A stretch of 64,000 nucleotides of DNA from Candidatus Poribacteria bacterium (GTDB taxonomy: Bacteria; Poribacteria; WGA-4E; WGA-3G), in the NCBI GenBank assembly GCA_963665235.2, contig CAXXLX010000001.1, positions 3,488,001-3,552,000 of the forward strand, in the 5' to 3' direction. Within the stretch, counting starts at the first letter, position 1. Every line of letters starts with the position of its first letter. The position numbers and the translations under genes are program-made. This document shows positions 1,206 to 58,385 of this stretch, piece after piece. The notes under the pieces are model-generated. The model ran no database searches and was not told the origin of the DNA. It worked only from the letters and a program-made list of their open reading frames with translations.

Positions 1206-1410
1206 GTCAATAACCCCCCGCTAAAGCATGGGGGCTTGTGCGAACCGCCTGCCAAGCGGTCACTCCACAAGTTAAACCGTTGACTACAGTAATATATCGG
1301 GTATTCTTAGCGTGGCAGCTAACAAGATGTTTCAGATGCTCCCCAAGTCTGAATCCCCTCTGAATACCTGATCTGGATGGGGAAACATATACCCGAAAGG
1401 AGAAAACAAA
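1206..1410 (+). ncRNA. omegaRNA scaffold (guide read from the left flank, about 1186-1205)
   Basis: ~200-nt structured non-coding region starting GTCAA, with a complementary TTGAC downstream, directly upstream of isrB and conserved in copy 2. Confidence 0.8.
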
Positions 1411-1413
1411 CTT

Positions 1414-2472
1414 ATGTTTGTGCCAGTCAAAACGAAAGAGGGTGAACGATTGAGGTTTCCGATGCATGCTGCACGTGCAAGGAAACTTGTCAAACGCGGT
1501 GAAGCAACGCCTTATTGGAACAACGGTGTCTATTGTGTCCGTCTCAACAAAGAACCGAGTGACCGTGAGAAACAAGACATCGTAGTCGGTGTGGATCCTG
1601 GCTCTAAGAAAGAGGGTTTCACCGTAAAATCTAAGCGTCACACGTATCTGAACGTGCAGGTTTCCGATGCACATAGCAAAGTCGGCAAGAAGGTTGAGAA
1701 AAGACGTGAGTTGAGGCGTAGCCGCAGAGCGCGTAAATGTCCAAATCGGAAGAACCGCAAGAATAAAGGTGCTAACAAAAAGAAGATTCCCGCAGGCACG
1801 CGTGCCCGTTGGGATTGGAAACTGCGGATATTAGATTGGTTGTCTAACCTCTATCCTGTTACACACGTCTGTGTTGAGGATATTAAGGCGCGGACAAAAC
1901 AGTATCAAAAGCGGTGGAATCAGGCCTTTAGTCCTTTGGAAGTCGGAAAGCATTGGTTCTATTCAGAGGTAGAAAAGCGATGGGAACTCCTAACATTACA
2001 AGGGTTTGAAACCAAAGAGATACGCGAGCGTCTTGGTCTCAACAAGTCGTCAAAGAAGTTAGCTGAAACCTTTGAGGCACATTGCGTTGATAGCTGGTGC
2101 TTGGCATATCACACCATTGGCGGTTTAGAGATACCCGACAATACCGATATATTCTGTATCTCACCAATACCGATACGCAGGCGACAACTCCACAGACAAA
2201 ATCCGCAGAAAGGTGGCAATCGGCCGCGATATGGTGGCACCTTATTAGGCGATGGACTTGTTAAAAGCACATTGATAAAGCACGACAAATATGGACTCAC
2301 ACGTCCGAGGTCCCACCGAGGACATCCTATTGCGGGTGTTAATGCGAAAGGCCTATTCTCTGTCTATTCAAAAGATGGACAACGGTTAACAACGGGTGCG
2401 AAACGCACAGATTTTCAAGTGCTAACACGCTTGAACTTTCAATATAGGAGCGGTGTTTCCTCCCCCGCATAA
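1414..2472 (+). CDS. isrB: IsrB RNA-guided nickase (RRXRR/PLMP N-terminus, split RuvC, no HNH)
   Basis: 352 aa; RuvC-I VGVDPG, Arg-rich bridge helix RRELRRSRRARK, RuvC-II VEDI, RuvC-III HCVDS; no HNH or CxxC motifs. Confidence 0.85.
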   Translation: MFVPVKTKEGERLRFPMHAARARKLVKRGEATPYWNNGVYCVRLNKEPSDREKQDIVVGVDPGSKKEGFTVKSKRHTYLNVQVSDAHSKVGKKVEKRRELRRSRRARKCPNRKNRKNKGANKKKIPAGTRARWDWKLRILDWLSNLYPVTHVCVEDIKARTKQYQKRWNQAFSPLEVGKHWFYSEVEKRWELLTLQGFETKEIRERLGLNKSSKKLAETFEAHCVDSWCLAYHTIGGLEIPDNTDIFCISPIPIRRRQLHRQNPQKGGNRPRYGGTLLGDGLVKSTLIKHDKYGLTRPRSHRGHPIAGVNAKGLFSVYSKDGQRLTTGAKRTDFQVLTRLNFQYRSGVSSPA

Positions 2473-2598
2473 ATGCTGGGGGTCTCCACACCGAATATTT
2501 TGATGATAGAGGGAAGGATGGATTTGGCGTGTGTTGTCTGAATCGCGGATTACACAGAGGACACGAAGAACGCGGAAAAAGAGGGGTTTGGGTAAAAT

Positions 2599-52563: not shown

Positions 52564-53223
52564 TTAAGTTTCGCTATCCCATTCCAAGGGCTGGTTTTCC
52601 AAATAGGGACGTAGCAGAATTCGGAGCCGACGGTGCGCATGATGTAGATGCGTTTTAACCGTTCCCTCCGAGCGGTCTAAGAGGGAAGCAATCTCTTTAA
52701 TTTGCATCTCACGTCCGTAGCGAAGTCTGAAAACCCGCTGCTGCTTCGGTGGCAACTGCTCGATGGCTTTACAGATAATATGCCCCAGCTCCTTCTGGAC
52801 AATTAGTTCTGAAGGGGATGGTTGCGTATCCGGGATCGGTAACTCATCATCGCCATCCGGGGTTAACTCCTCAAATGCTACCGTTTTATGTTTTTTCTGC
52901 TGGCGTAAAAAATCGATACAGCAATTTACCGCGATACGGTAAAGCCAGCTATAGAAGGCCGACTCACGTTTGAAGTTCGGCAATGCCTTGAAGGCTTTTA
53001 GGAAAACCTCTTGGCAAAGGTCTTTTGTCGTTTCCGCGTCATGTATATGTTTGTAAACGAGATTCGCAATCCGCTTCTGATATTTAAGCATGAGGGTGTT
53101 AAACGCCTGTTTATCGCCATTCTGGAACCGGGTTAACACCTCCTGCTCGTCGATAAACTCAAGTTCATCAGCAGATGGAAAATCTATGAGGTATGTTGTA
53201 TCTGACATGCTAATTTTCTCCAT
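52564..53223 (-). CDS. ECF sigma-70 factor (RpoE-like, standalone)
   Basis: QEVFLKAF, FYSWLYRIAVN, EIA...GTVKTHLH. Confidence 0.93.
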   Translation of the reverse strand: MEKISMSDTTYLIDFPSADELEFIDEQEVLTRFQNGDKQAFNTLMLKYQKRIANLVYKHIHDAETTKDLCQEVFLKAFKALPNFKRESAFYSWLYRIAVNCCIDFLRQQKKHKTVAFEELTPDGDDELPIPDTQPSPSELIVQKELGHIICKAIEQLPPKQQRVFRLRYGREMQIKEIASLLDRSEGTVKTHLHHAHRRLRILLRPYLENQPLEWDSET

Positions 53224-53378
53224 TATGCAGCGCGAACGCCGTTTTAAGTGAAGGGGCTGTCCAAAAAAACTTTAATTTAAATTTATACACCTTTCGGCAG
53301 AAAAAGTTCCATTTTTATATTGTTAGACATGTTTATCCGTTTTTTGTTCATTTTTTTCCCCTTTTCCCCCCTTTCCAC

Positions 53379-53865
53379 GGGTGTGTAAAGTTTTTGTACA
53401 AGTAGGACTTACGCATTCCCCTCCGCTCCTCTACTAGCGGGATATCGGTATTAGTCCCATAGGGACGATATATTTATAGAAACTGCTGCTTCTTTACGCC
53501 CGAATGCCCGTAAATATTTTGTACTTATGTGTCAATAATGCAGAAAACACGCTAAACCTCCAATCACAAAACTTCGATTGTTACGCAGATTAAAATCCGC
53601 GTAATCCGATAAATCCGCGATAATCCGAGATTCTGACAAAAAACGCAATACCCATAATCACAAAACTTTGATTGTTACACATGGGACAATCCGCGAAATC
53701 TGTGTAATCCCCGATAATTTGTGATTTGCGGCGTACTCGCCCAAATGCGCCGTGCCTTCAGACAACATACACGCTAAATCCCCTCTTCCATTCTTCTTCT
53801 CTTCCACCCTTCCAATCTTCCATCCTTCCACCTATCCCTTGGTCCTCCAAAAACTTTACGCCCCC
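53379..53865. mobile_element. composite MITE with IS256-like ends
   Basis: 18-bp imperfect TIR GGGTGTGTAAAGTTTTTG / CAAAAACTTTACGCCCCC; 9-bp TSD CCTTTCCAC; no ORF. Confidence 0.8.
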
Positions 53866-53970
53866 CCTTTCCACGCGATTTGCGAAAATCCGGTATTTCT
53901 GATAAAATAGACAGTAGGTCAAAAGTCAGGCGGCATTATTTTCATCGTTTTTTCAACCGTTCTCTTCTAA

Positions 53971-54182
53971 TACCATTTCTAATTGGAAATGTCTCTTTAT
54001 TGTAGCATAAACTTCCAGTTTGTGCACTTTCTTGTAGCATAAACTTCCAGTTTGGGCACTTTATTGTAGCATAAACTTCCAGTTTGGGCACTTTATTGTA
54101 GCATAAACTTCCAGTTTGTGTCTTCCGTTCTCCGTTTGATTTCTAACAACCGGTAATGATAGAATAATTAATAAAAATGGTA
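53971..54182. mobile_element. MITE family A with 4 REP units
   Basis: TACCATTT TIRs; TSD TAA. Confidence 0.92.
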
Positions 54183-54270
54183 TAATATAGAGAGCGGGCT
54201 GTGTTCGCGCCTGGCGGTTCAAATTAGGTAAAATTAGATGGAAGAAAACGGAACGAACTCCACAAACGAA

Positions 54271-54475
54271 GTCAATAACCCCCCGCTAAAGCATGGGGGC
54301 TTGTGCGAACCGCCTGCCAAGCGGTCACTCCACAAGTTAAACCGTTGACTACAGTAATATATCGGGTATTCTTAGCGTGGCAGCTAACAAGATGTTTCAG
54401 ATGCTCCCCAAGTCTGAATCCCCTCTGAATACCTGATCTGGATGGGGAAACATATACCCGAAAGGAGAAAACAAA
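54271..54475 (+). ncRNA. omegaRNA scaffold (guide about 54251-54270)
   Basis: Matches the scaffold of copy 1. Confidence 0.8.
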
Positions 54476-54478
54476 CTT

Positions 54479-55531
54479 ATGTTTGTGCCAGTCAAAACGA
54501 AAGAGGGTGAACGATTGATGCCGATGCATGCTGCACGTGCAAGGAAACTTGTCAAACGCGGTGAAGCAACGCCTTATTGGAACAACGGTGTCTATTGTGT
54601 CCGTCTCAACAAAGAACCGAGTGACCGTGAGAAACAAGACATCGTAGTCGGTGTGGATCCTGGCTCTAAGAAAGAGGGTTTCACCGTAAAATCTAAGCGT
54701 CACACGTATCTGAACGTGCAAGCCGATGCACATAGCAAAGTCGGCAAGAAGGTTGAGAAAAGACGTGAGTTGAGGCGTAGCCGCAGAGCGCGTAAATGTC
54801 CAAATCGGAAGAACCGCAAGAATAAAGGTGCTAACAAAAAGAAGATTCCCGCAGGCACGCGTGCCCGTTGGGATTGGAAACTGCGGATATTAGATTGGTT
54901 GTCTAACCTCTATCCTGTTACACACGTCTGTGTTGAGGATATTAAGGCGCGGACAAAACAGTATCAAAAGCGGTGGAATCAGGCCTTTAGTCCTTTGGAA
55001 GTGGGAAAGCATTGGTTCTATTCAGAGGTAGAAAAGCGATGGGAACTCCTAACATTACAAGGGTTTGAAACCAAAGAGATACGCGAGCGGCTTGGTCTCA
55101 ACAAGTCGTCAAAGAAGTTAGCTGAAACCTTTGAGGCACATTGCGTTGATAGCTGGTGCTTGGCCTATCACACCATTGGCGGTTTAGAGATACCCGACAA
55201 TACCGATATATTCTGTATCTCACCAATACCGATACGCAGGCGACAACTCCACAGACAAAATCCGCAGAAAGGTGGCAATCGGCCGCGATATGGTGGCACC
55301 TTATTAGGCGATGGACTTGTTAAAAGCACATTGATAAAGCACGACAAATATGGACTCACACGTCCGAGGTCCCACCGAGGACATCCTATTGCGGGTGTTA
55401 ATGCGAAAGGCCTATTCTCTGTCTATTCAAAAGATGGACAACGGTTAACAACGGGTGCGAAACGCACAGATTTTCAAGTGCTAACACGCTTGAACTTTCA
55501 ATATAGGAGCGGTGTTTCCTCCCCCGCATAA
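54479..55531 (+). CDS. isrB: IsrB RNA-guided nickase
   Basis: 350 aa; RLMP (PLMP-like) motif; RuvC D/E/H/D residues intact; no HNH. Confidence 0.88.
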   Translation: MFVPVKTKEGERLMPMHAARARKLVKRGEATPYWNNGVYCVRLNKEPSDREKQDIVVGVDPGSKKEGFTVKSKRHTYLNVQADAHSKVGKKVEKRRELRRSRRARKCPNRKNRKNKGANKKKIPAGTRARWDWKLRILDWLSNLYPVTHVCVEDIKARTKQYQKRWNQAFSPLEVGKHWFYSEVEKRWELLTLQGFETKEIRERLGLNKSSKKLAETFEAHCVDSWCLAYHTIGGLEIPDNTDIFCISPIPIRRRQLHRQNPQKGGNRPRYGGTLLGDGLVKSTLIKHDKYGLTRPRSHRGHPIAGVNAKGLFSVYSKDGQRLTTGAKRTDFQVLTRLNFQYRSGVSSPA

Positions 55532-55561
55532 ATGCTGGGGGTCTCCACACCGAATATTTTG

Positions 55562-57175
55562 ATGAATCAAAGTGTGACCCGGGCAGCTGGGGTTGTAAGT
55601 CTTGCAGTGATGGGGTCACGGGTGTTAGGGCTTGCCCGAGAGGTCGCCATCCTGTATTATTTTCAGACGAAGTTCGGGGCAGCCGCCTACCATCTCGCGT
55701 TTCGCATCCCGAATTTCCTGCGCGACCTGTTCGGTGAGGGTATCTTGAGCAAGGCGTTTATTACGACATTCCTTGCGGCGGAAGCAGAAGAGGGGGAGGC
55801 GGCGGCATGGAATCTTGCAAACCGCATCTTTAATCTGATAGCCCTTATCCTAGTAGGTGTGGTGGGGCTCGGTATCGTTTTCGCACCCGCTATCGTTGAT
55901 GTCCTGGCCCGTGAGGATTTCGACGAGCAATTAAATAACGTTGAACATTACGGATTTGACAGTAAAGTTGAATTGACAATCTATTTGACGCAACTGATGT
56001 TTCCGTACCTATTCCTCGTTTCGCTTGCAGCGATAGCGATGGGATTATTGAACAGTAAAGGTAAATTCGGTATCCCCGCGTGTGCTTCCTCCTTCTTTAA
56101 TCTGTGCTCGCTTGTCGTTGGTATCAGCGGTTATTACGTCTGTCGATGGCTCGGAATTCATCCGACAACAGGAATGGCAGTAGGGGTCATTGTGGGAGGT
56201 ATTGCTCAATTTGGAATTCAGGTGCCCTCCATGTACCGAGTCGGTTTTCGGTATCGTCCACTCTTGAGCCTACGGCATCCGAGGGTACGCCAAATGCTGC
56301 AATTGCTTGGGCCTTCGGTGTTAGGTGTGGCAGCGGTGCAGGTGAATCAACTGACAAATACGTGGTTTATTACCTCAGGCGATGAATGGTTACCGTGGAT
56401 TAACAGTGCCTATCGTATAATGCACCTGCCGTTGGGTATATTTGGCGTGGCGATTTCGACGGTGGCACTGCCGCAACTTGTGAAATTCGCTACTGTGGGT
56501 GATACGGACAACTTTCGCGCCGCTTTCTCTTACGCCCTCCGTTTAATGTTAACTGTAATCCTTCCCGCATCAATTGGATTGATGGTATTGGCAGAACCGA
56601 TTTGTCGGTTGCTTTATGAGCACGGGGCATTCACGGAGGGGGATACAATTGCAGCCGCTGGTGCTCTGTTCGTTTACGCCTTCGGGTTGTGCGGTTTCGC
56701 GGCTCTCAAGCTTGTGACGGATGGATTTTATGCATATAAAGATATCCGTGCGCCAGTTATCGTCAGCATTTGTGCGGTAGTCCTCAACATCGGTTTGAAC
56801 TATCTGTTTATCTATCGCGGGCTCCTGTTCGAACATTGGGCAATTGTGCTTTCAACTGTTTTTACCGTGACGCTGAACTTTTTAGTTTTGCTCCTGCTGC
56901 TCCGACGTAAGGTTGGACGGTTGAATTTGCGACCGCTCCTTCCGATGGCATTCAAGGTTTTGATGGCTTCGATTGTGATGGGATTTATCTGCTGGATAAC
57001 AAATGGAGTCGTTGAAAAGGATTGGCTCGGCACAGAAGGTATTCTACCACGCGCCCTAGGTGTATTCACCCCCATCGGATTCGGTCTGCTGACATTGGCG
57101 GGGATGTATAAGTTCTTGAGAATCACTGAGTTTGACGATATTTTGGAAATGTTTAAGCGGCGATTTCGGAATTGA
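55562..57175 (+). CDS. murJ: lipid II flippase MurJ (MviN); alternative start 55532 inside the element end
   Basis: SRVLGLARE, AFRIPNFLRDLFGEG, LPLGIFGVAISTVALP. Confidence 0.96.
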   Translation: MNQSVTRAAGVVSLAVMGSRVLGLAREVAILYYFQTKFGAAAYHLAFRIPNFLRDLFGEGILSKAFITTFLAAEAEEGEAAAWNLANRIFNLIALILVGVVGLGIVFAPAIVDVLAREDFDEQLNNVEHYGFDSKVELTIYLTQLMFPYLFLVSLAAIAMGLLNSKGKFGIPACASSFFNLCSLVVGISGYYVCRWLGIHPTTGMAVGVIVGGIAQFGIQVPSMYRVGFRYRPLLSLRHPRVRQMLQLLGPSVLGVAAVQVNQLTNTWFITSGDEWLPWINSAYRIMHLPLGIFGVAISTVALPQLVKFATVGDTDNFRAAFSYALRLMLTVILPASIGLMVLAEPICRLLYEHGAFTEGDTIAAAGALFVYAFGLCGFAALKLVTDGFYAYKDIRAPVIVSICAVVLNIGLNYLFIYRGLLFEHWAIVLSTVFTVTLNFLVLLLLLRRKVGRLNLRPLLPMAFKVLMASIVMGFICWITNGVVEKDWLGTEGILPRALGVFTPIGFGLLTLAGMYKFLRITEFDDILEMFKRRFRN

Positions 57176-57195
57176 TGACCTGTTAGAGACAAGTA

Positions 57196-57564
57196 CTAAA
57201 CTTTGGACAATTTTAGGGAGACACAATGTTCTTGTCAAACGGATAGGTGGAAGGGTGGAAGAATGGAAGGGTGGAAGCGGGGAAGCGGGTTTTGACGCGC
57301 GGCAGAGATAGGCTTAGCCTCACAATCCTCTTGCTAACTGCTAATGGTTTCCAACATTCTATAAACATTCCGCCCCGCTGGGGCTAGTTTGTGTTTTGTT
57401 TGTGTTTTCTATAAACATTCCGCCCCGCTGGGGAAACCGCACTTTGAAAAACCCATCGGCGGAAACCATTTTTCTCTTCTTTGTCCTTGTGTGAGGCACT
57501 TAGAGAAAAATCAGAGAGGCTTTGAAAGCGGGTATCCGGCTCACGGATATTGTCCAAACTATAG
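57196..57564. mobile_element. composite MITE (TIR CTAWASTTTGGACAAT)
   Basis: Imperfect 16-bp TIR; direct repeat AGACAAGTA on both flanks; related partial ends at ~23895-23978 and 45001. Confidence 0.75.
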
Positions 57565-57605
57565 AAGACAAGTACAGCAGGCAGGTTTTAAAAAGAGAGG
57601 AAAAT

Positions 57606-58385
57606 ATGCTAACCAAACGGGTAATTCCATGTTTAGACGTACGGGCGGGAAAAGTCACCAAAGGCATCGCTTTCAAAGGCAATGTTGATGTGGGTGACCC
57701 TGTCGAAATGGCACGGTTTTATTATGAAAGCGGTGCCGATGAACTTGTCTTTTACGACATCACCGCAAGCAACGAACGGAGAGATATTATGATTGATGTT
57801 GTCTCCGCTGTCGCTGCTGAAATTTTTATTCCGTTTTCTGTCGGCGGCGGGTTGCGGACGCTTGAGGATATGCGCCGCGTGCTACTTGCTGGCGCGGAGA
57901 AGGTGAGCATAGACTCCGGGGCAGTACGAAATCCTGATATTATTGCAGAAGGGGCACACGCCTTCGGTAGTCAATGTGTTGTCCTGAGCATGCAGGTCAA
58001 ACGCGTACCGAAAAGTGAACAGATTCCAAGCGGTTATGAAATCTATATCGACGGGGGACGGACACCGGTCGGTTGGGATGCACTGGCATGGTCCAAACGC
58101 GGCGTTGATTTAGGAGCAGGCGAGATTGTCGTCAATAGCATTGATGCTGATGGCACTAAAGCAGGGTATGAGTTGGCACTGACAGGCGCAATCGCTGAAT
58201 TGGTCTCGGTGCCAGTAATTGCCTCCGGGGGTGCAGGACATCCTCAACACCTATGCGATGTTTTTGTCCAAAGCAACGCGGATGCAGCGATTGTCGCCTC
58301 TATTACACACTACGGCGAATTTACGATTGAAAATATCAAAACCTATCTCGTGGATGAAGGTGTGAGTGTGCGCGATACCTGGTAG
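57606..58385 (+). CDS. hisF: imidazole glycerol phosphate synthase subunit HisF
   Basis: [42 protein letters not shown]. Confidence 0.98.

What the first reader, a model, noticed from the sequence alone, without database searches (positions are those of the whole stretch)
54238..55600. IsrB element inserted inside murJ supplies a translationally coupled in-frame restart
Removing 54271-55561 restores a continuous frame: ATG(54238) GAA GAA AAC GGA ACG AAC TCC ACA AAC GAA | ATG AAT CAA... (MEENGTNSTNE-MNQSVT). So the element split murJ after codon 11, which also fixes the boundary at ATGA. In the element, the isrB stop TAA (55529-31) is immediately followed by ATG and ten stop-free codons (MLGVSTPNIL) in frame with the TAM's ATG. 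Because the TAM contains ATG, any insertion at an in-frame Met gets a built-in restart coupled to isrB translation. This would be a splicing-free way of sparing host genes (MurJ is normally essential) and of tying host fitness to isrB expression. I know of no description of this.
Basis: partly seen in the sequence, partly recalled or inferred. Interest (0 to 1): 0.85.

Follow-up and report, generated by a model that had tools for sequence, protein, structure and literature searches.

The report
IsrB transposon parked at gene starts
A small RNA-guided transposon sits inside the start of the cell-wall gene murJ next to an in-frame ATG, and its relatives in these sponge-symbiont genomes habitually sit exactly between a host gene's ribosome-binding site and its start codon, even at essential ribosomal genes, which suggests the element's own end restarts host translation.

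Summary
A 1,291-bp IsrB/omega-RNA element (54271-55561) lies inside murJ after codon 11, directly 5' of an in-frame ATGA. All 19 orthologous murJ genes examined keep the 8-11-residue N-terminal extension and have no Met at that codon. Public-run contigs carry the empty site joined exactly 54270|55562.

The stop-adjacent in-frame ATG is subfamily-specific: 11 of 16 unique right ends in this genome have it, but only 13 of 53 in related genomes, and 15 of those 53 have an in-frame stop 0-1 codons before the ATGA.

The wider pattern is stronger than proposed. Of 122 distinct insertion sites, 63 open a frame of 100 aa or more at the target ATG/GTG, against 17.7% of random ATGA sites. The host Shine-Dalgarno usually lies just left of the junction. 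In one related genome, single-copy rpsJ and rpmJ carry such insertions.

What is conserved at the right end is an SD-like GGAG, a covarying two-tier hairpin and a 6-10-nt spacer before the ATG. My best reading is that this end acts as a portable translation start. This is inferred, not shown. The ATGA target and the sense-orientation bias were already published.

The parts
54136..54165 (+). Promoter-like site upstream of murJ (TTGATT, 18-nt spacer, TAGAAT, TG before the -10). Presumed source of the transcript that carries guide, omega-RNA, isrB and murJ.
   Evidence: Consensus scan only; function inferred.
54238..54270 (+). Severed first 11 codons of murJ (MEENGTNSTNE). The last ~16-20 nt are also the predicted guide segment of the omega-RNA.
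   Evidence: Orthologues keep this extension. The empty-site joint is at 54270|55562. The guide role is inferred from the published IscB/IsrB architecture (Meers 2023 preprint, passages).
54271..55561 (+). Non-autonomous IS200/IS605-superfamily IsrB (ISC1-type) element, 1,291 bp, with no terminal inverted repeats and no target duplication.
   Evidence: Copies in the genome; the exact skipped stretch in public-run contigs.
54271..54478 (+). Omega-RNA scaffold, including the left subterminal hairpin CCCCCCGC-TAAA-GCATGGGGG.
   Evidence: HEARO RF02033 matched over model positions 1-211 at 54271-54474, but weakly (30.8 bits, E 0.0012, gathering score 83). Contig depth in RNA libraries X6/X8 is 10-20 times that of the ORF, summed over all copies and relatives.
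54479..55531 (+). isrB, 350 aa plus TAA; its own SD GGAG lies at 54464-54467.
   Evidence: Pfam RRXRR PF14239, E 1.3e-28. Best solved relative is DtIsrB 8DMB, E 9.2e-36 over residues 3-323. D60, E153 and D224 are invariant in 13 homologues.
55506..55509 (+). SD-like GGAG abutting the 5' foot of the right-end hairpin; the candidate Shine-Dalgarno of a split ribosome-binding site.
   Evidence: A purine-rich SD-like motif is at this place in all 32 aligned right ends, including 7 sister-family ends where it lies after the isrB stop. 68 of 74 sites in the wider scan have it. Function inferred.
55510..55552 (+). Two-tier right-end hairpin. Outer stem is CGGTGT/ACACCG (55510-15 with 55547-52). Inner stem is CCCCCGCA/TGCTGGGGG (55521-28 with 55533-41). 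The isrB TAA lies in the loop.
   Evidence: MFE fold. Covariation: 12 of 13 pairs have changes on both sides and 94% of cells are paired, against 67% in shuffles; the outer helix is 6 of 6.
55532..55561 (+).
   Evidence: Sequence. Subfamily-specific, not conserved.
55553..55561 (+). 9-nt A/U-rich spacer (AATATTTTG) between the hairpin foot and the TAM ATG; last bases of the element.
   Evidence: Spacer length is 6-10 nt in 74 of 74 distinct sites.
55562..55565 (+). ATGA target/TAM. It is host sequence and codon 12 of the ancestral murJ.
   Evidence: Retained in the empty-site contigs. 31 of 33 right ends in the genome have it. In the wider scan 70 sites have ATGA and 4 have GTGA, of 74.
55562..57175 (+). 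Remaining murJ ORF: 537 aa plus stop, with the whole MurJ domain intact.
   Evidence: Pfam MurJ PF03023, E 5.6e-100. 47-78% identity to orthologues from residue 1-5 onward, with no stops.

Best explanation
This is a recent, still polymorphic insertion of a non-autonomous IsrB/omega-RNA transposon (ISC1 type, IS200/IS605 superfamily). It lies 5' of an ATGA that a lineage-specific substitution had created at codon 12 of murJ.

The family targets (A/G)TGA, which is also the commonest start-codon context. It is found mostly in sense orientation exactly between a host gene's Shine-Dalgarno and its start codon. murJ is the variant case in which the ATG is an early internal Met.

Shown:
- the anatomy and the boundaries;
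- the empty allele;
- the start-codon enrichment;
- the displaced host SD;
- occupancy of single-copy rpsJ and rpmJ in a relative;
- a conserved right-end module of GGAG, a covarying hairpin, a 6-10-nt spacer and the ATG.

Inferred:
1. The host promoter transcribes guide, omega-RNA, isrB and the host ORF as one RNA. This gives the element the external transcription that its 5' guide needs.
2. The host ORF is translated from the TAM ATG because the right end acts as a portable initiation region. The GGAG would be brought to about 6-10 nt from the ATG by the intervening hairpin, as in the split ribosome-binding sites of T4 genes 38 and 25. Termination-reinitiation after isrB would contribute in those subfamilies where the stop lies in the hairpin loop.
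3. In this copy MurJ would start at M12 (55562), or at 55532 with MLGVSTPNIL replacing a poorly conserved N-terminal tail.

Rough odds: the insertion anatomy 0.97; real start-codon residency 0.9; the element end supplies initiation 0.7; the split SD is the main device 0.4.
For: Anatomy. Orthologues with the N-terminal extension: 19 of 19. Empty site joined at 54270|55562 in X1, X5 and X6.

Enrichment at gene starts:
- In this genome 20 of 31 right ends open an ORF of 60 aa or more at the TAM ATG, against 25% of 5,000 random ATGA sites.
- 14 of 28 paired elements are 'start-like' (ORF of 100 aa or more, at most 20 open codons upstream), against 4.4% of all 39,677 ATGA sites (p 2e-12). Against a survivorship null of 25%, p is 0.004.
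- In the union of 122 distinct sites from this and related genomes, 63 have an ORF of 100 aa or more (p 2e-17 against 17.7%).

Host SD just left of the junction:
- 21 of 30 ORF-bearing sites against 2 of 25 other sites in the wider scan; 10 of 18 against 3 of 10 in this genome.
- The genome norm is 48% at first ATGs of long ORFs and 8% at random positions, and the 16S 3' end carries CCTCC.

Essential genes: elements sit immediately before rpsJ (followed by an L3 gene) and rpmJ (followed by an S13 gene) in G067. Each is the only copy in that one-contig genome.

Right-end module. No terminator-like site was found in the element end.

Precedents and context, from passages read:
- split SD in T4 genes 38 and 25 (PMC3014915);
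- N|ATGA target of ISC1/ISC2 (PMC4810608);
- NTGA/NTG TAMs of IsrB, with ATGA active (PMC9581776);
- the IscB guide needs outside transcription, and upstream genes are biased to the same orientation (10.1101/2023.03.14.532601).
Against: - No expression data exist for the occupied allele. The RNA-library contigs break at the repeat, and the only junction-spanning RNA-library contig (X6) is the empty form.
- The hairpin covaries almost only through Watson-Crick changes (2 G-U cells of 414). That fits a DNA hairpin read by TnpA. The spacer length may likewise be fixed by transposition chemistry, so the RNA role may be incidental.
- In the main family the GGAG lies inside the isrB frame (NY-RSG), and one subfamily here has only AAGG. 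The sequences are related, so conservation partly reflects descent.
- Not all copies are at gene starts. 10 of 28 here are in other frames, antisense or intergenic, and only 9 of 24 in G067 are at starts, counting rpmJ.
- The survivorship control is only moderately significant (p 0.004) and uses crude ORF-based gene calls.
- The murJ insertion is polymorphic: X5 carries only the empty allele. It could therefore be mildly harmful.
Confidence: 0.65

Rival explanations
1. One reading: the ATG placed right after the isrB stop, in frame with the TAM ATG, is a selected, built-in restart. MurJ, and host genes in general, would be made by termination-reinitiation coupled to isrB translation.
For: - UAAAUG adjacency and ten open in-frame codons in this copy.
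- The same arrangement in 20 of 31 right ends of this genome.
- A different in-frame ATG (TAA AGG ATG) in the prolific G067 family.
- In the main family a ribosome finishing isrB would have melted the hairpin 30 nt from the TAM.
Against: - The ATG is absent from 5 of 16 unique ends here and 40 of 53 elsewhere, and 15 of 53 have an in-frame stop 0-1 codons before the TAM.
- In sister-family elements isrB ends about 58 nt upstream and out of frame.
- The ATG is explained by hairpin stem sequence.
- Copies that lack isrB still sit at the starts of ORFs of 205-453 aa.
- IsrB contacts its own SD in the omega-RNA and may limit its own translation (PMC9581776 passage). That would suit rpsJ poorly.
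Confidence: 0.2
2. Nothing special is going on. The element just tolerates or survives at ATGA sites outside coding sequence. Host genes behind it are expressed weakly by chance initiation on read-through RNA, or are impaired. The murJ insertion is a transient, slightly harmful polymorphism.
For: - The empty allele coexists: it is the only form in X5 and a minor form in X1.
- 10 of 28 copies are not at gene starts.
- The survivorship null already predicts 25% at starts.
- The hairpin looks DNA-level.
Against: - Single-copy rpsJ and rpmJ, with S13 and L3 genes downstream, carry insertions that displace their SD by 1.27 kb. This organism uses SD.
- Start occupancy is above the survivorship null and recurs in at least three diverged lineages.
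- An SD-like motif is kept next to the hairpin even where it is non-coding.
Confidence: 0.15

Closest known systems
ISC1 / IsrB elements of the IS200/IS605 superfamily (Kapitonov 2016, PMC4810608; Hirano 2022, PMC9581776; passages read)
   Same: - A ~350-aa RuvC-only IsrB with an N-terminal PLMP-type region.
- An omega-RNA 5' of the ORF.
- GT... 5' terminus, subterminal hairpins and no target duplication.
- Insertion at N|ATGA, and an NTGA-type TAM.
   Different: The passages I read say nothing about the ATGA being a start codon: 'start codon' occurs 0 times in both papers. Here most copies sit between the SD and the ATG of host genes, and the right end carries an SD-like motif plus hairpin at initiation distance.
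Orientation bias of IscB elements relative to upstream genes (Meers et al. 2023 preprint, 10.1101/2023.03.14.532601; passages read)
   Same: The guide lies outside the element, so omega-RNA synthesis depends on outside transcription. Elements are retained in the sense orientation of host transcription.
   Different: That work describes the orientation of the upstream gene. In the passages found it does not describe nucleotide-exact residency at start codons, effects on the downstream gene, or a translation-restoring end.
Split ribosome-binding sites of phage T4 genes 38 and 25 (review PMC3014915; passage read)
   Same: The SD is too far from the AUG in sequence (52 nt here; 22 and 27 nt in T4). 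An intervening hairpin would bring it to 5-11 nt.
   Different: In T4 this was shown by mutation and probing. Here it is only a sequence and structure resemblance, and the hairpin has a primary role as a transposon end.
IStrons (group I intron plus IS605; PMC4227781, abstract in a search listing only)
   Same: An IS200/IS605-type element that is made harmless to the host gene it interrupts.
   Different: IStrons remove themselves from the RNA by splicing. No intron or ribozyme family was found here. Sparing would act at translation initiation.

Membership tests
IsrB (ISC1) element, IS200/IS605 superfamily | RuvC-only Cas9-like protein of ~350 aa without an HNH insert | tested here: met
   Pfam RRXRR only, with no HNH hit. 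8DMB DtIsrB, E 9.2e-36 over residues 3-323; IscB chains match only the N-terminal ~115 aa. D60, E153 and D224 are invariant; calling them the catalytic triad rests on recall.
IsrB (ISC1) element, IS200/IS605 superfamily | Structured omega-RNA directly 5' of the ORF, starting at the element end | tested here: inconclusive
   HEARO RF02033 spans the whole model at 54271-54474 but scores 30.8 bits against a gathering score of 83. The region is conserved among copies. No covariance model of IsrB-type omega-RNA was built.
IsrB (ISC1) element, IS200/IS605 superfamily | Subterminal hairpins, no terminal inverted repeats, no target-site duplication, insertion 5' of a 4-nt motif (N|ATGA) | tested here: met
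   Hairpins at both ends. The empty site is restored exactly by removing 1,291 bp. 31 of 33 right ends are followed by ATGA.
IsrB (ISC1) element, IS200/IS605 superfamily | Mobilised in trans by a Y1 (TnpA) transposase | tested here: inconclusive
   13 matches to Y1_Tnp PF01797 in the genome, 12 over the cut-off and none inside the element. Which one, if any, recognises these ends was not tested.
IsrB (ISC1) element, IS200/IS605 superfamily | RNA-guided nicking of the empty donor joint next to the TAM | not testable with these tools
   Needs biochemistry. Only the required parts (guide flank, TAM, intact ORF) are seen.
MurJ lipid II flippase | Full MurJ domain, orthologous to murJ of relatives | tested here: met
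   PF03023, E 5.6e-100. A match in 41 of 41 genomes (this one included), best matches 47-78% identical. The only other hit in this genome is 25% identical.
Translational coupling by termination-reinitiation | Stop of the upstream ORF adjacent to or overlapping the start of the downstream ORF, kept across relatives | tested here: not met
   Present in this copy (TAAATG). Conserved in only 11 of 16 unique ends here and 13 of 53 elsewhere. Activity itself is not testable here.
Split (hairpin-bridged) Shine-Dalgarno site | An SD, then a stable hairpin, then a short single-stranded spacer to the AUG; translation depends on the hairpin | tested here: inconclusive
   The sequence features are met: an SD-like motif at the hairpin foot in 32 of 32 aligned ends (a literal GGAG in most, weaker AAGG/AGAG/AGGA/GGAA/GAGG/GGGA in the rest), a 6-10-nt spacer, and a predicted fold that leaves the GGAG free. 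Dependence of translation on the hairpin is not testable here.
IStron / self-splicing mobile intron | Group I (or II) intron ribozyme within the element | tested here: not met
   An Rfam scan of 53000-58000 at E up to 0.1 found only HEARO.

The most novel reading that the evidence does not exclude
IsrB/ISC1 elements with an (A/G)TGA TAM are natural 'start-codon traps'. By choosing the commonest start context they land, in sense, between the SD and the ATG of host genes. There the host promoter makes their externally encoded guide plus omega-RNA. They pay for the seat with a portable initiation region at their 3' end, in which the TnpA hairpin doubles as the bridge of a split Shine-Dalgarno. 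This lets even essential genes (rpsJ, rpmJ, murJ) carry them and ties host-gene output to the element.
Probability: 0.35. Interest if true: 0.8.

Novelty: new variant of a known kind. Interest (0 to 1): 0.66.

Why it matters
**Transposon biology.** If the reading holds, it shows how an RNA-guided transposon can live inside transcription units, essential ones included, without splicing and without killing the host gene. It also explains two known facts together: the ATGA target of ISC elements, and their sense-orientation bias.

**Annotation.** Genes behind such elements are probably still functional and should not be called pseudogenes or truncated.

**Engineering.** The right-end module would be a compact natural part for inserting a cargo between a promoter/5'UTR and a gene while keeping the gene translated.

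**Testability.** The claim can be tested directly with simple reporters in E. coli.

Tried and rejected
**RNA evidence for the occupied allele.** I laid runs X1, X5, X6 and X8. All are assembled contigs that break at the repeat. No RNA-library contig bridges 55561/55562 or 54270/54271 in the occupied form. This says nothing either way.

**Terminator idea.** I asked whether the right-end hairpin plus U-tract is an intrinsic terminator. The scan did not flag it, and the G067 family has no U-tract (AAGAGTG). Rejected as the general role.

**Protein constraint on GGAG.** I asked whether the GGAG is kept only because it encodes the IsrB tail. Rejected: sister-family IsrB ends before it (LNFNYI*) and the motif persists.

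**murJ redundancy.** The only other MOP-family hit in the genome is 25% identical. I did not test other flippase families.

**Literature.**
- Searches found no paper describing IsrB/IscB residency at start codons or a translation-restoring end.
- The original HEARO paper (PMC4140389) is not held, and supplements are closed. The supplementary target-site figures of PMC4810608 and the HEARO supplement may bear on priority.
- One fold (L060) used wrong coordinates and is disregarded.
- Regex parsing missed some loci. 5 of 80 were dropped (3 with no structure found, 2 mis-parsed). 15 relatives' loci were not parsed, of which 14 are sister-family loci; ORF lengths for those 14 are listed (11 of 14 at 60 aa or more).
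- The 122 sites come from related genomes. Old shared insertions with diverged flanks may be counted more than once.
Full report
**What is there.**
- The window lies at C1:3488001-3552000 of a 5.3-Mb, four-contig genome.
- At 54271-55561 sits a 1,291-bp element with two parts. The first is a 208-nt structured leader that matches the HEARO/omega-RNA model over its full length, but weakly (30.8 bits, E 0.0012, gathering score 83). The second is a 350-aa ORF (54479-55531).
- That ORF hits Pfam RRXRR (E 1.3e-28). Its best solved relative is the IsrB nickase of Desulfovirgula thermocuniculi (8DMB, E 9.2e-36 over residues 3-323). IscB chains match only its first ~115 residues. It is therefore an IsrB (ISC1-type) element of the IS200/IS605 superfamily.
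- It carries no transposase. The genome has 13 matches to the Y1 transposase family elsewhere.
- Directly downstream, from ATG 55562, runs a 537-aa MurJ (PF03023, E 5.6e-100).

**Check of the observation.**
ATG 54238 is preceded by an in-frame TAG and opens 11 codons. The element follows. TAA 55529-31 is followed at once by ATG 55532 and nine further open codons in frame with ATG 55562.
- The claim that the element sits inside murJ, rather than upstream of its start, needed outside evidence, and that evidence supports it. I fetched murJ from 19 relatives. All 19 have an ATG-led extension of 8-11 codons (ME[EN]..T.S..) and then Q, N, I, L, E or A, never Met, at the position of 55562. None carries an element there. 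The Met at codon 12 is thus a lineage-specific change that created a new ATGA.
- Contigs of public runs contain the empty allele joined exactly at 54270|55562. In X5 its depth (5.2) equals the flank depth, with 111 and 233 nt on the two sides and one mismatch. X1 holds it at depth 2 beside flanks at 6-9. The RNA library X6 holds it at depth 4.3.
- The insertion is therefore recent and polymorphic. The ATGA is host sequence, and nothing is duplicated or lost.

**The family in this genome.**
- BLAST finds about 20 full-length and several short (450-570 bp) isrB-less copies. Of 33 right ends, 31 are followed by ATGA.
- Of those 31, 20 open a frame of 60 aa or more exactly at that ATG, against 25% of 5,000 random ATGA sites.
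- I paired 28 left and right ends and rebuilt the empty sites in a script. 18 have the ATG in frame at or near the start of a sense ORF. 10 lie in other frames, antisense or between genes.
- By a stricter rule (ORF of 100 aa or more and at most 20 open codons upstream), 14 of 28 are start-like. Of all 39,677 ATGA sites, 4.4% are start-like (p 2e-12). Under a null in which only start-like and non-coding ATGA sites survive, 25% would be (p 0.004; crude ORF-based gene calls).
- Many left flanks end in a classical Shine-Dalgarno 5-11 nt before the junction. An SD-like motif lies at -17..-4 in 10 of 18 ORF-bearing sites against 3 of 10 others.
- The organism uses SD. Its 16S rRNA ends in CCTCC. 48% of first ATGs of long ORFs have an SD-like motif, against 8% of random positions.

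**The family elsewhere.**
- The IsrB protein is found in 14 of 61 genomes sampled from the same order, this one included. One single-contig genome, G067, has 28 matches.
- A scan of one genome per species returned 517 relatives. The best 80 are all from records titled Candidatus Poribacteria or uncultured bacterium. The window's organism is very likely a poribacterium (inference).
- In that scan, 75 of 80 loci could be parsed, giving 74 distinct sites. The TAM is ATGA in 70 and GTGA in 4. 41 sites open an ORF of 60 aa or more and 36 one of 100 aa or more.
- Some GTGA cases open long frames at the GTG (346 and 415 aa). By recall they look like native N-termini of TrpD-like and isocitrate-dehydrogenase-like proteins.
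- The host SD lies just left of the junction in 21 of 30 ORF-bearing sites, against 2 of 25 others. In 19 sites no left end was found.
- Pooling all sets by distinct flank gives 122 sites. Of these, 69 have an ORF of 60 aa or more and 63 one of 100 aa or more (p 2e-17 against 17.7%). The sites are not fully independent, and 15 relatives' loci were not parsed. 14 of those 15 are sister-family loci listed, and 11 of the 14 have an ORF of 60 aa or more.
- In G067 one element sits immediately before an S10 gene that is followed by an L3 gene. Another sits before an L36 gene followed by an S13 gene. Each is the only copy in that genome.
- These genes must be translated although their own SD is now 1.27 kb away. 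This is the main reason to think that the element end supplies initiation.

- The stop-adjacent ATG is the first three bases of 'ATGCTGGGGG'. The TG belongs to the 3' arm of a hairpin whose loop holds the TAA. In the second subfamily the arm begins GC (TAAAGC) and there is no ATG.
- I counted ends that have an in-frame ATG between the nearest in-frame stop and the TAM. There were 11 of 16 unique ends (20 of 31 sites) in this genome. In the wider scan there were 13 of 53 unique ends (30 of 75 sites, mostly one prolific family).
- The in-frame stop lies 0 to 37 codons from the TAM, and in 15 of 53 ends only 0-1 codons before it.
- In the sister family IsrB ends at LNFNYI*, about 58 nt upstream and out of frame.
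- isrB-less copies also sit at gene starts.
- The specific restart is therefore real in this copy and may well be used here. It is not a conserved design.

**What is conserved.**
- An alignment of 32 diverse right ends shows four parts: a purine-rich SD-like motif (mostly GGAG); a two-tier hairpin directly after it; a 6-10-nt A/U-rich spacer (74 of 74 sites); and the ATG.
- 12 of 13 stem pairs show changes on both sides, including all 6 in the outer stem. 94% of cells are paired, against 67% in shuffles and 29-43% when the partners are slid.
- In the predicted RNA fold of the murJ junction the hairpin forms and the GGAG is left free at its foot.
- This is the geometry of the split ribosome-binding sites of T4 genes 38 and 25. 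There a hairpin shortens 22 and 27 nt to 5 and 11 nt (review PMC3014915, passage).
- The motif persists where it is non-coding (7 sister-family ends). It is GGAG or GGAGG in most isrB-less copies.
- Cautions: almost no G-U pairs occur (2 cells of 414). The hairpin is thus first of all a DNA structure for the transposase, and the spacer length may be fixed for the same reason. The sequences are kin. One subfamily has only AAGG. No functional data exist.

**How it most likely works.**
- Shown: the anatomy, the polymorphism, the target, the start-codon residency, the displaced host SD, the occupancy of essential genes and the conserved right-end module.
- Inferred: the host promoter (a promoter-like site at 54136-54165) drives one RNA carrying the guide (the last bases before 54271), the omega-RNA, isrB and murJ.
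- Published work already states that IscB guides lie outside the element, so transcription must start outside it, and that upstream genes are biased to the same orientation (Meers 2023 preprint, passages).
- A TAM that doubles as the usual start context would place the element in transcribed 5' leaders in sense.
- The host ORF would then be translated from the TAM ATG through the right-end module, with reinitiation after isrB as a helper where the stop lies in the loop.
- In the murJ copy the severed start should also translate a short peptide into the omega-RNA leader. I estimated about 36 aa by reading; this was not computed by a tool.
- MurJ would lose, or swap, a short N-terminal tail that varies in length and sequence among orthologues.

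**Comparison with what is known.**
- The N|ATGA target of ISC1/ISC2 elements was described in 2016 (PMC4810608, passages).
- NTGA/NTG TAMs of IsrB, with ATGA active, were described in 2022 (PMC9581776, passages). That paper also notes that IsrB contacts the SD of its own gene within the omega-RNA. This argues against relying on isrB translation for a highly expressed host gene.
- Neither paper contains the words 'start codon'. Six searches found no description of start-codon residency or of a translation-restoring end.
- The HEARO paper and all supplements could not be read, so priority cannot be excluded.

**Verdict.** The finding is best filed as a new variant of a known kind. It is a known transposon family with a known target, shown here to live at start codons (essential genes included) with a plausible but unproven built-in translation start.

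Noticed in passing
window 53985-54125: Tandem 37-bp repeat just upstream of the murJ promoter-like site. Its 21-nt core occurs 894 times in 169 clusters across the genome, in arrays of up to 24 units. Contig depth in runs X1/X5 is very high.
   Followed up: partly
window 53800-53835 and 57245-57280: Inverted pair of a GGAAGGGTGGAAG-type repeat bracketing the murJ locus. The motif occurs 153 times in the genome.
   Followed up: partly
window 1206-2506: Second IsrB element, 99% identical to the murJ copy. An SD-like AGGAG lies in its left flank, but only a 12-aa frame opens at its TAM ATG. A long antisense frame spans the site.
   Followed up: partly
G000 C2:342217; L174; L183: An ArgJ-like gene start (MK[QE]IDGGITAV; the name is recalled, not tested) carries an IsrB element in this genome and in two other genomes, with different right-end subfamilies. 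This is either an old shared insertion or repeated hits at one site.
   Followed up: no
G000 C1:19462-19939 and similar short copies: isrB-less derivatives of 450-570 bp keep both ends and also sit at gene starts. Two of them have a stronger SD-like motif (AGGAGG) than the full-length subfamily with the same outer stem.
   Followed up: partly
window 54344-54491: In the two RNA libraries the omega-RNA scaffold has 10-20 times the contig depth of the isrB ORF. The depth is summed over all copies and relatives, so it is only a hint of a stable RNA.
   Followed up: no
L127, L120, L122, L123, L126 right ends: Some right-end hairpins carry a nested extra hairpin in the loop (for example ...GCTGCTTAGTCCCGATTTATCGGGGAC...), with the rest of the module unchanged.
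   Followed up: no
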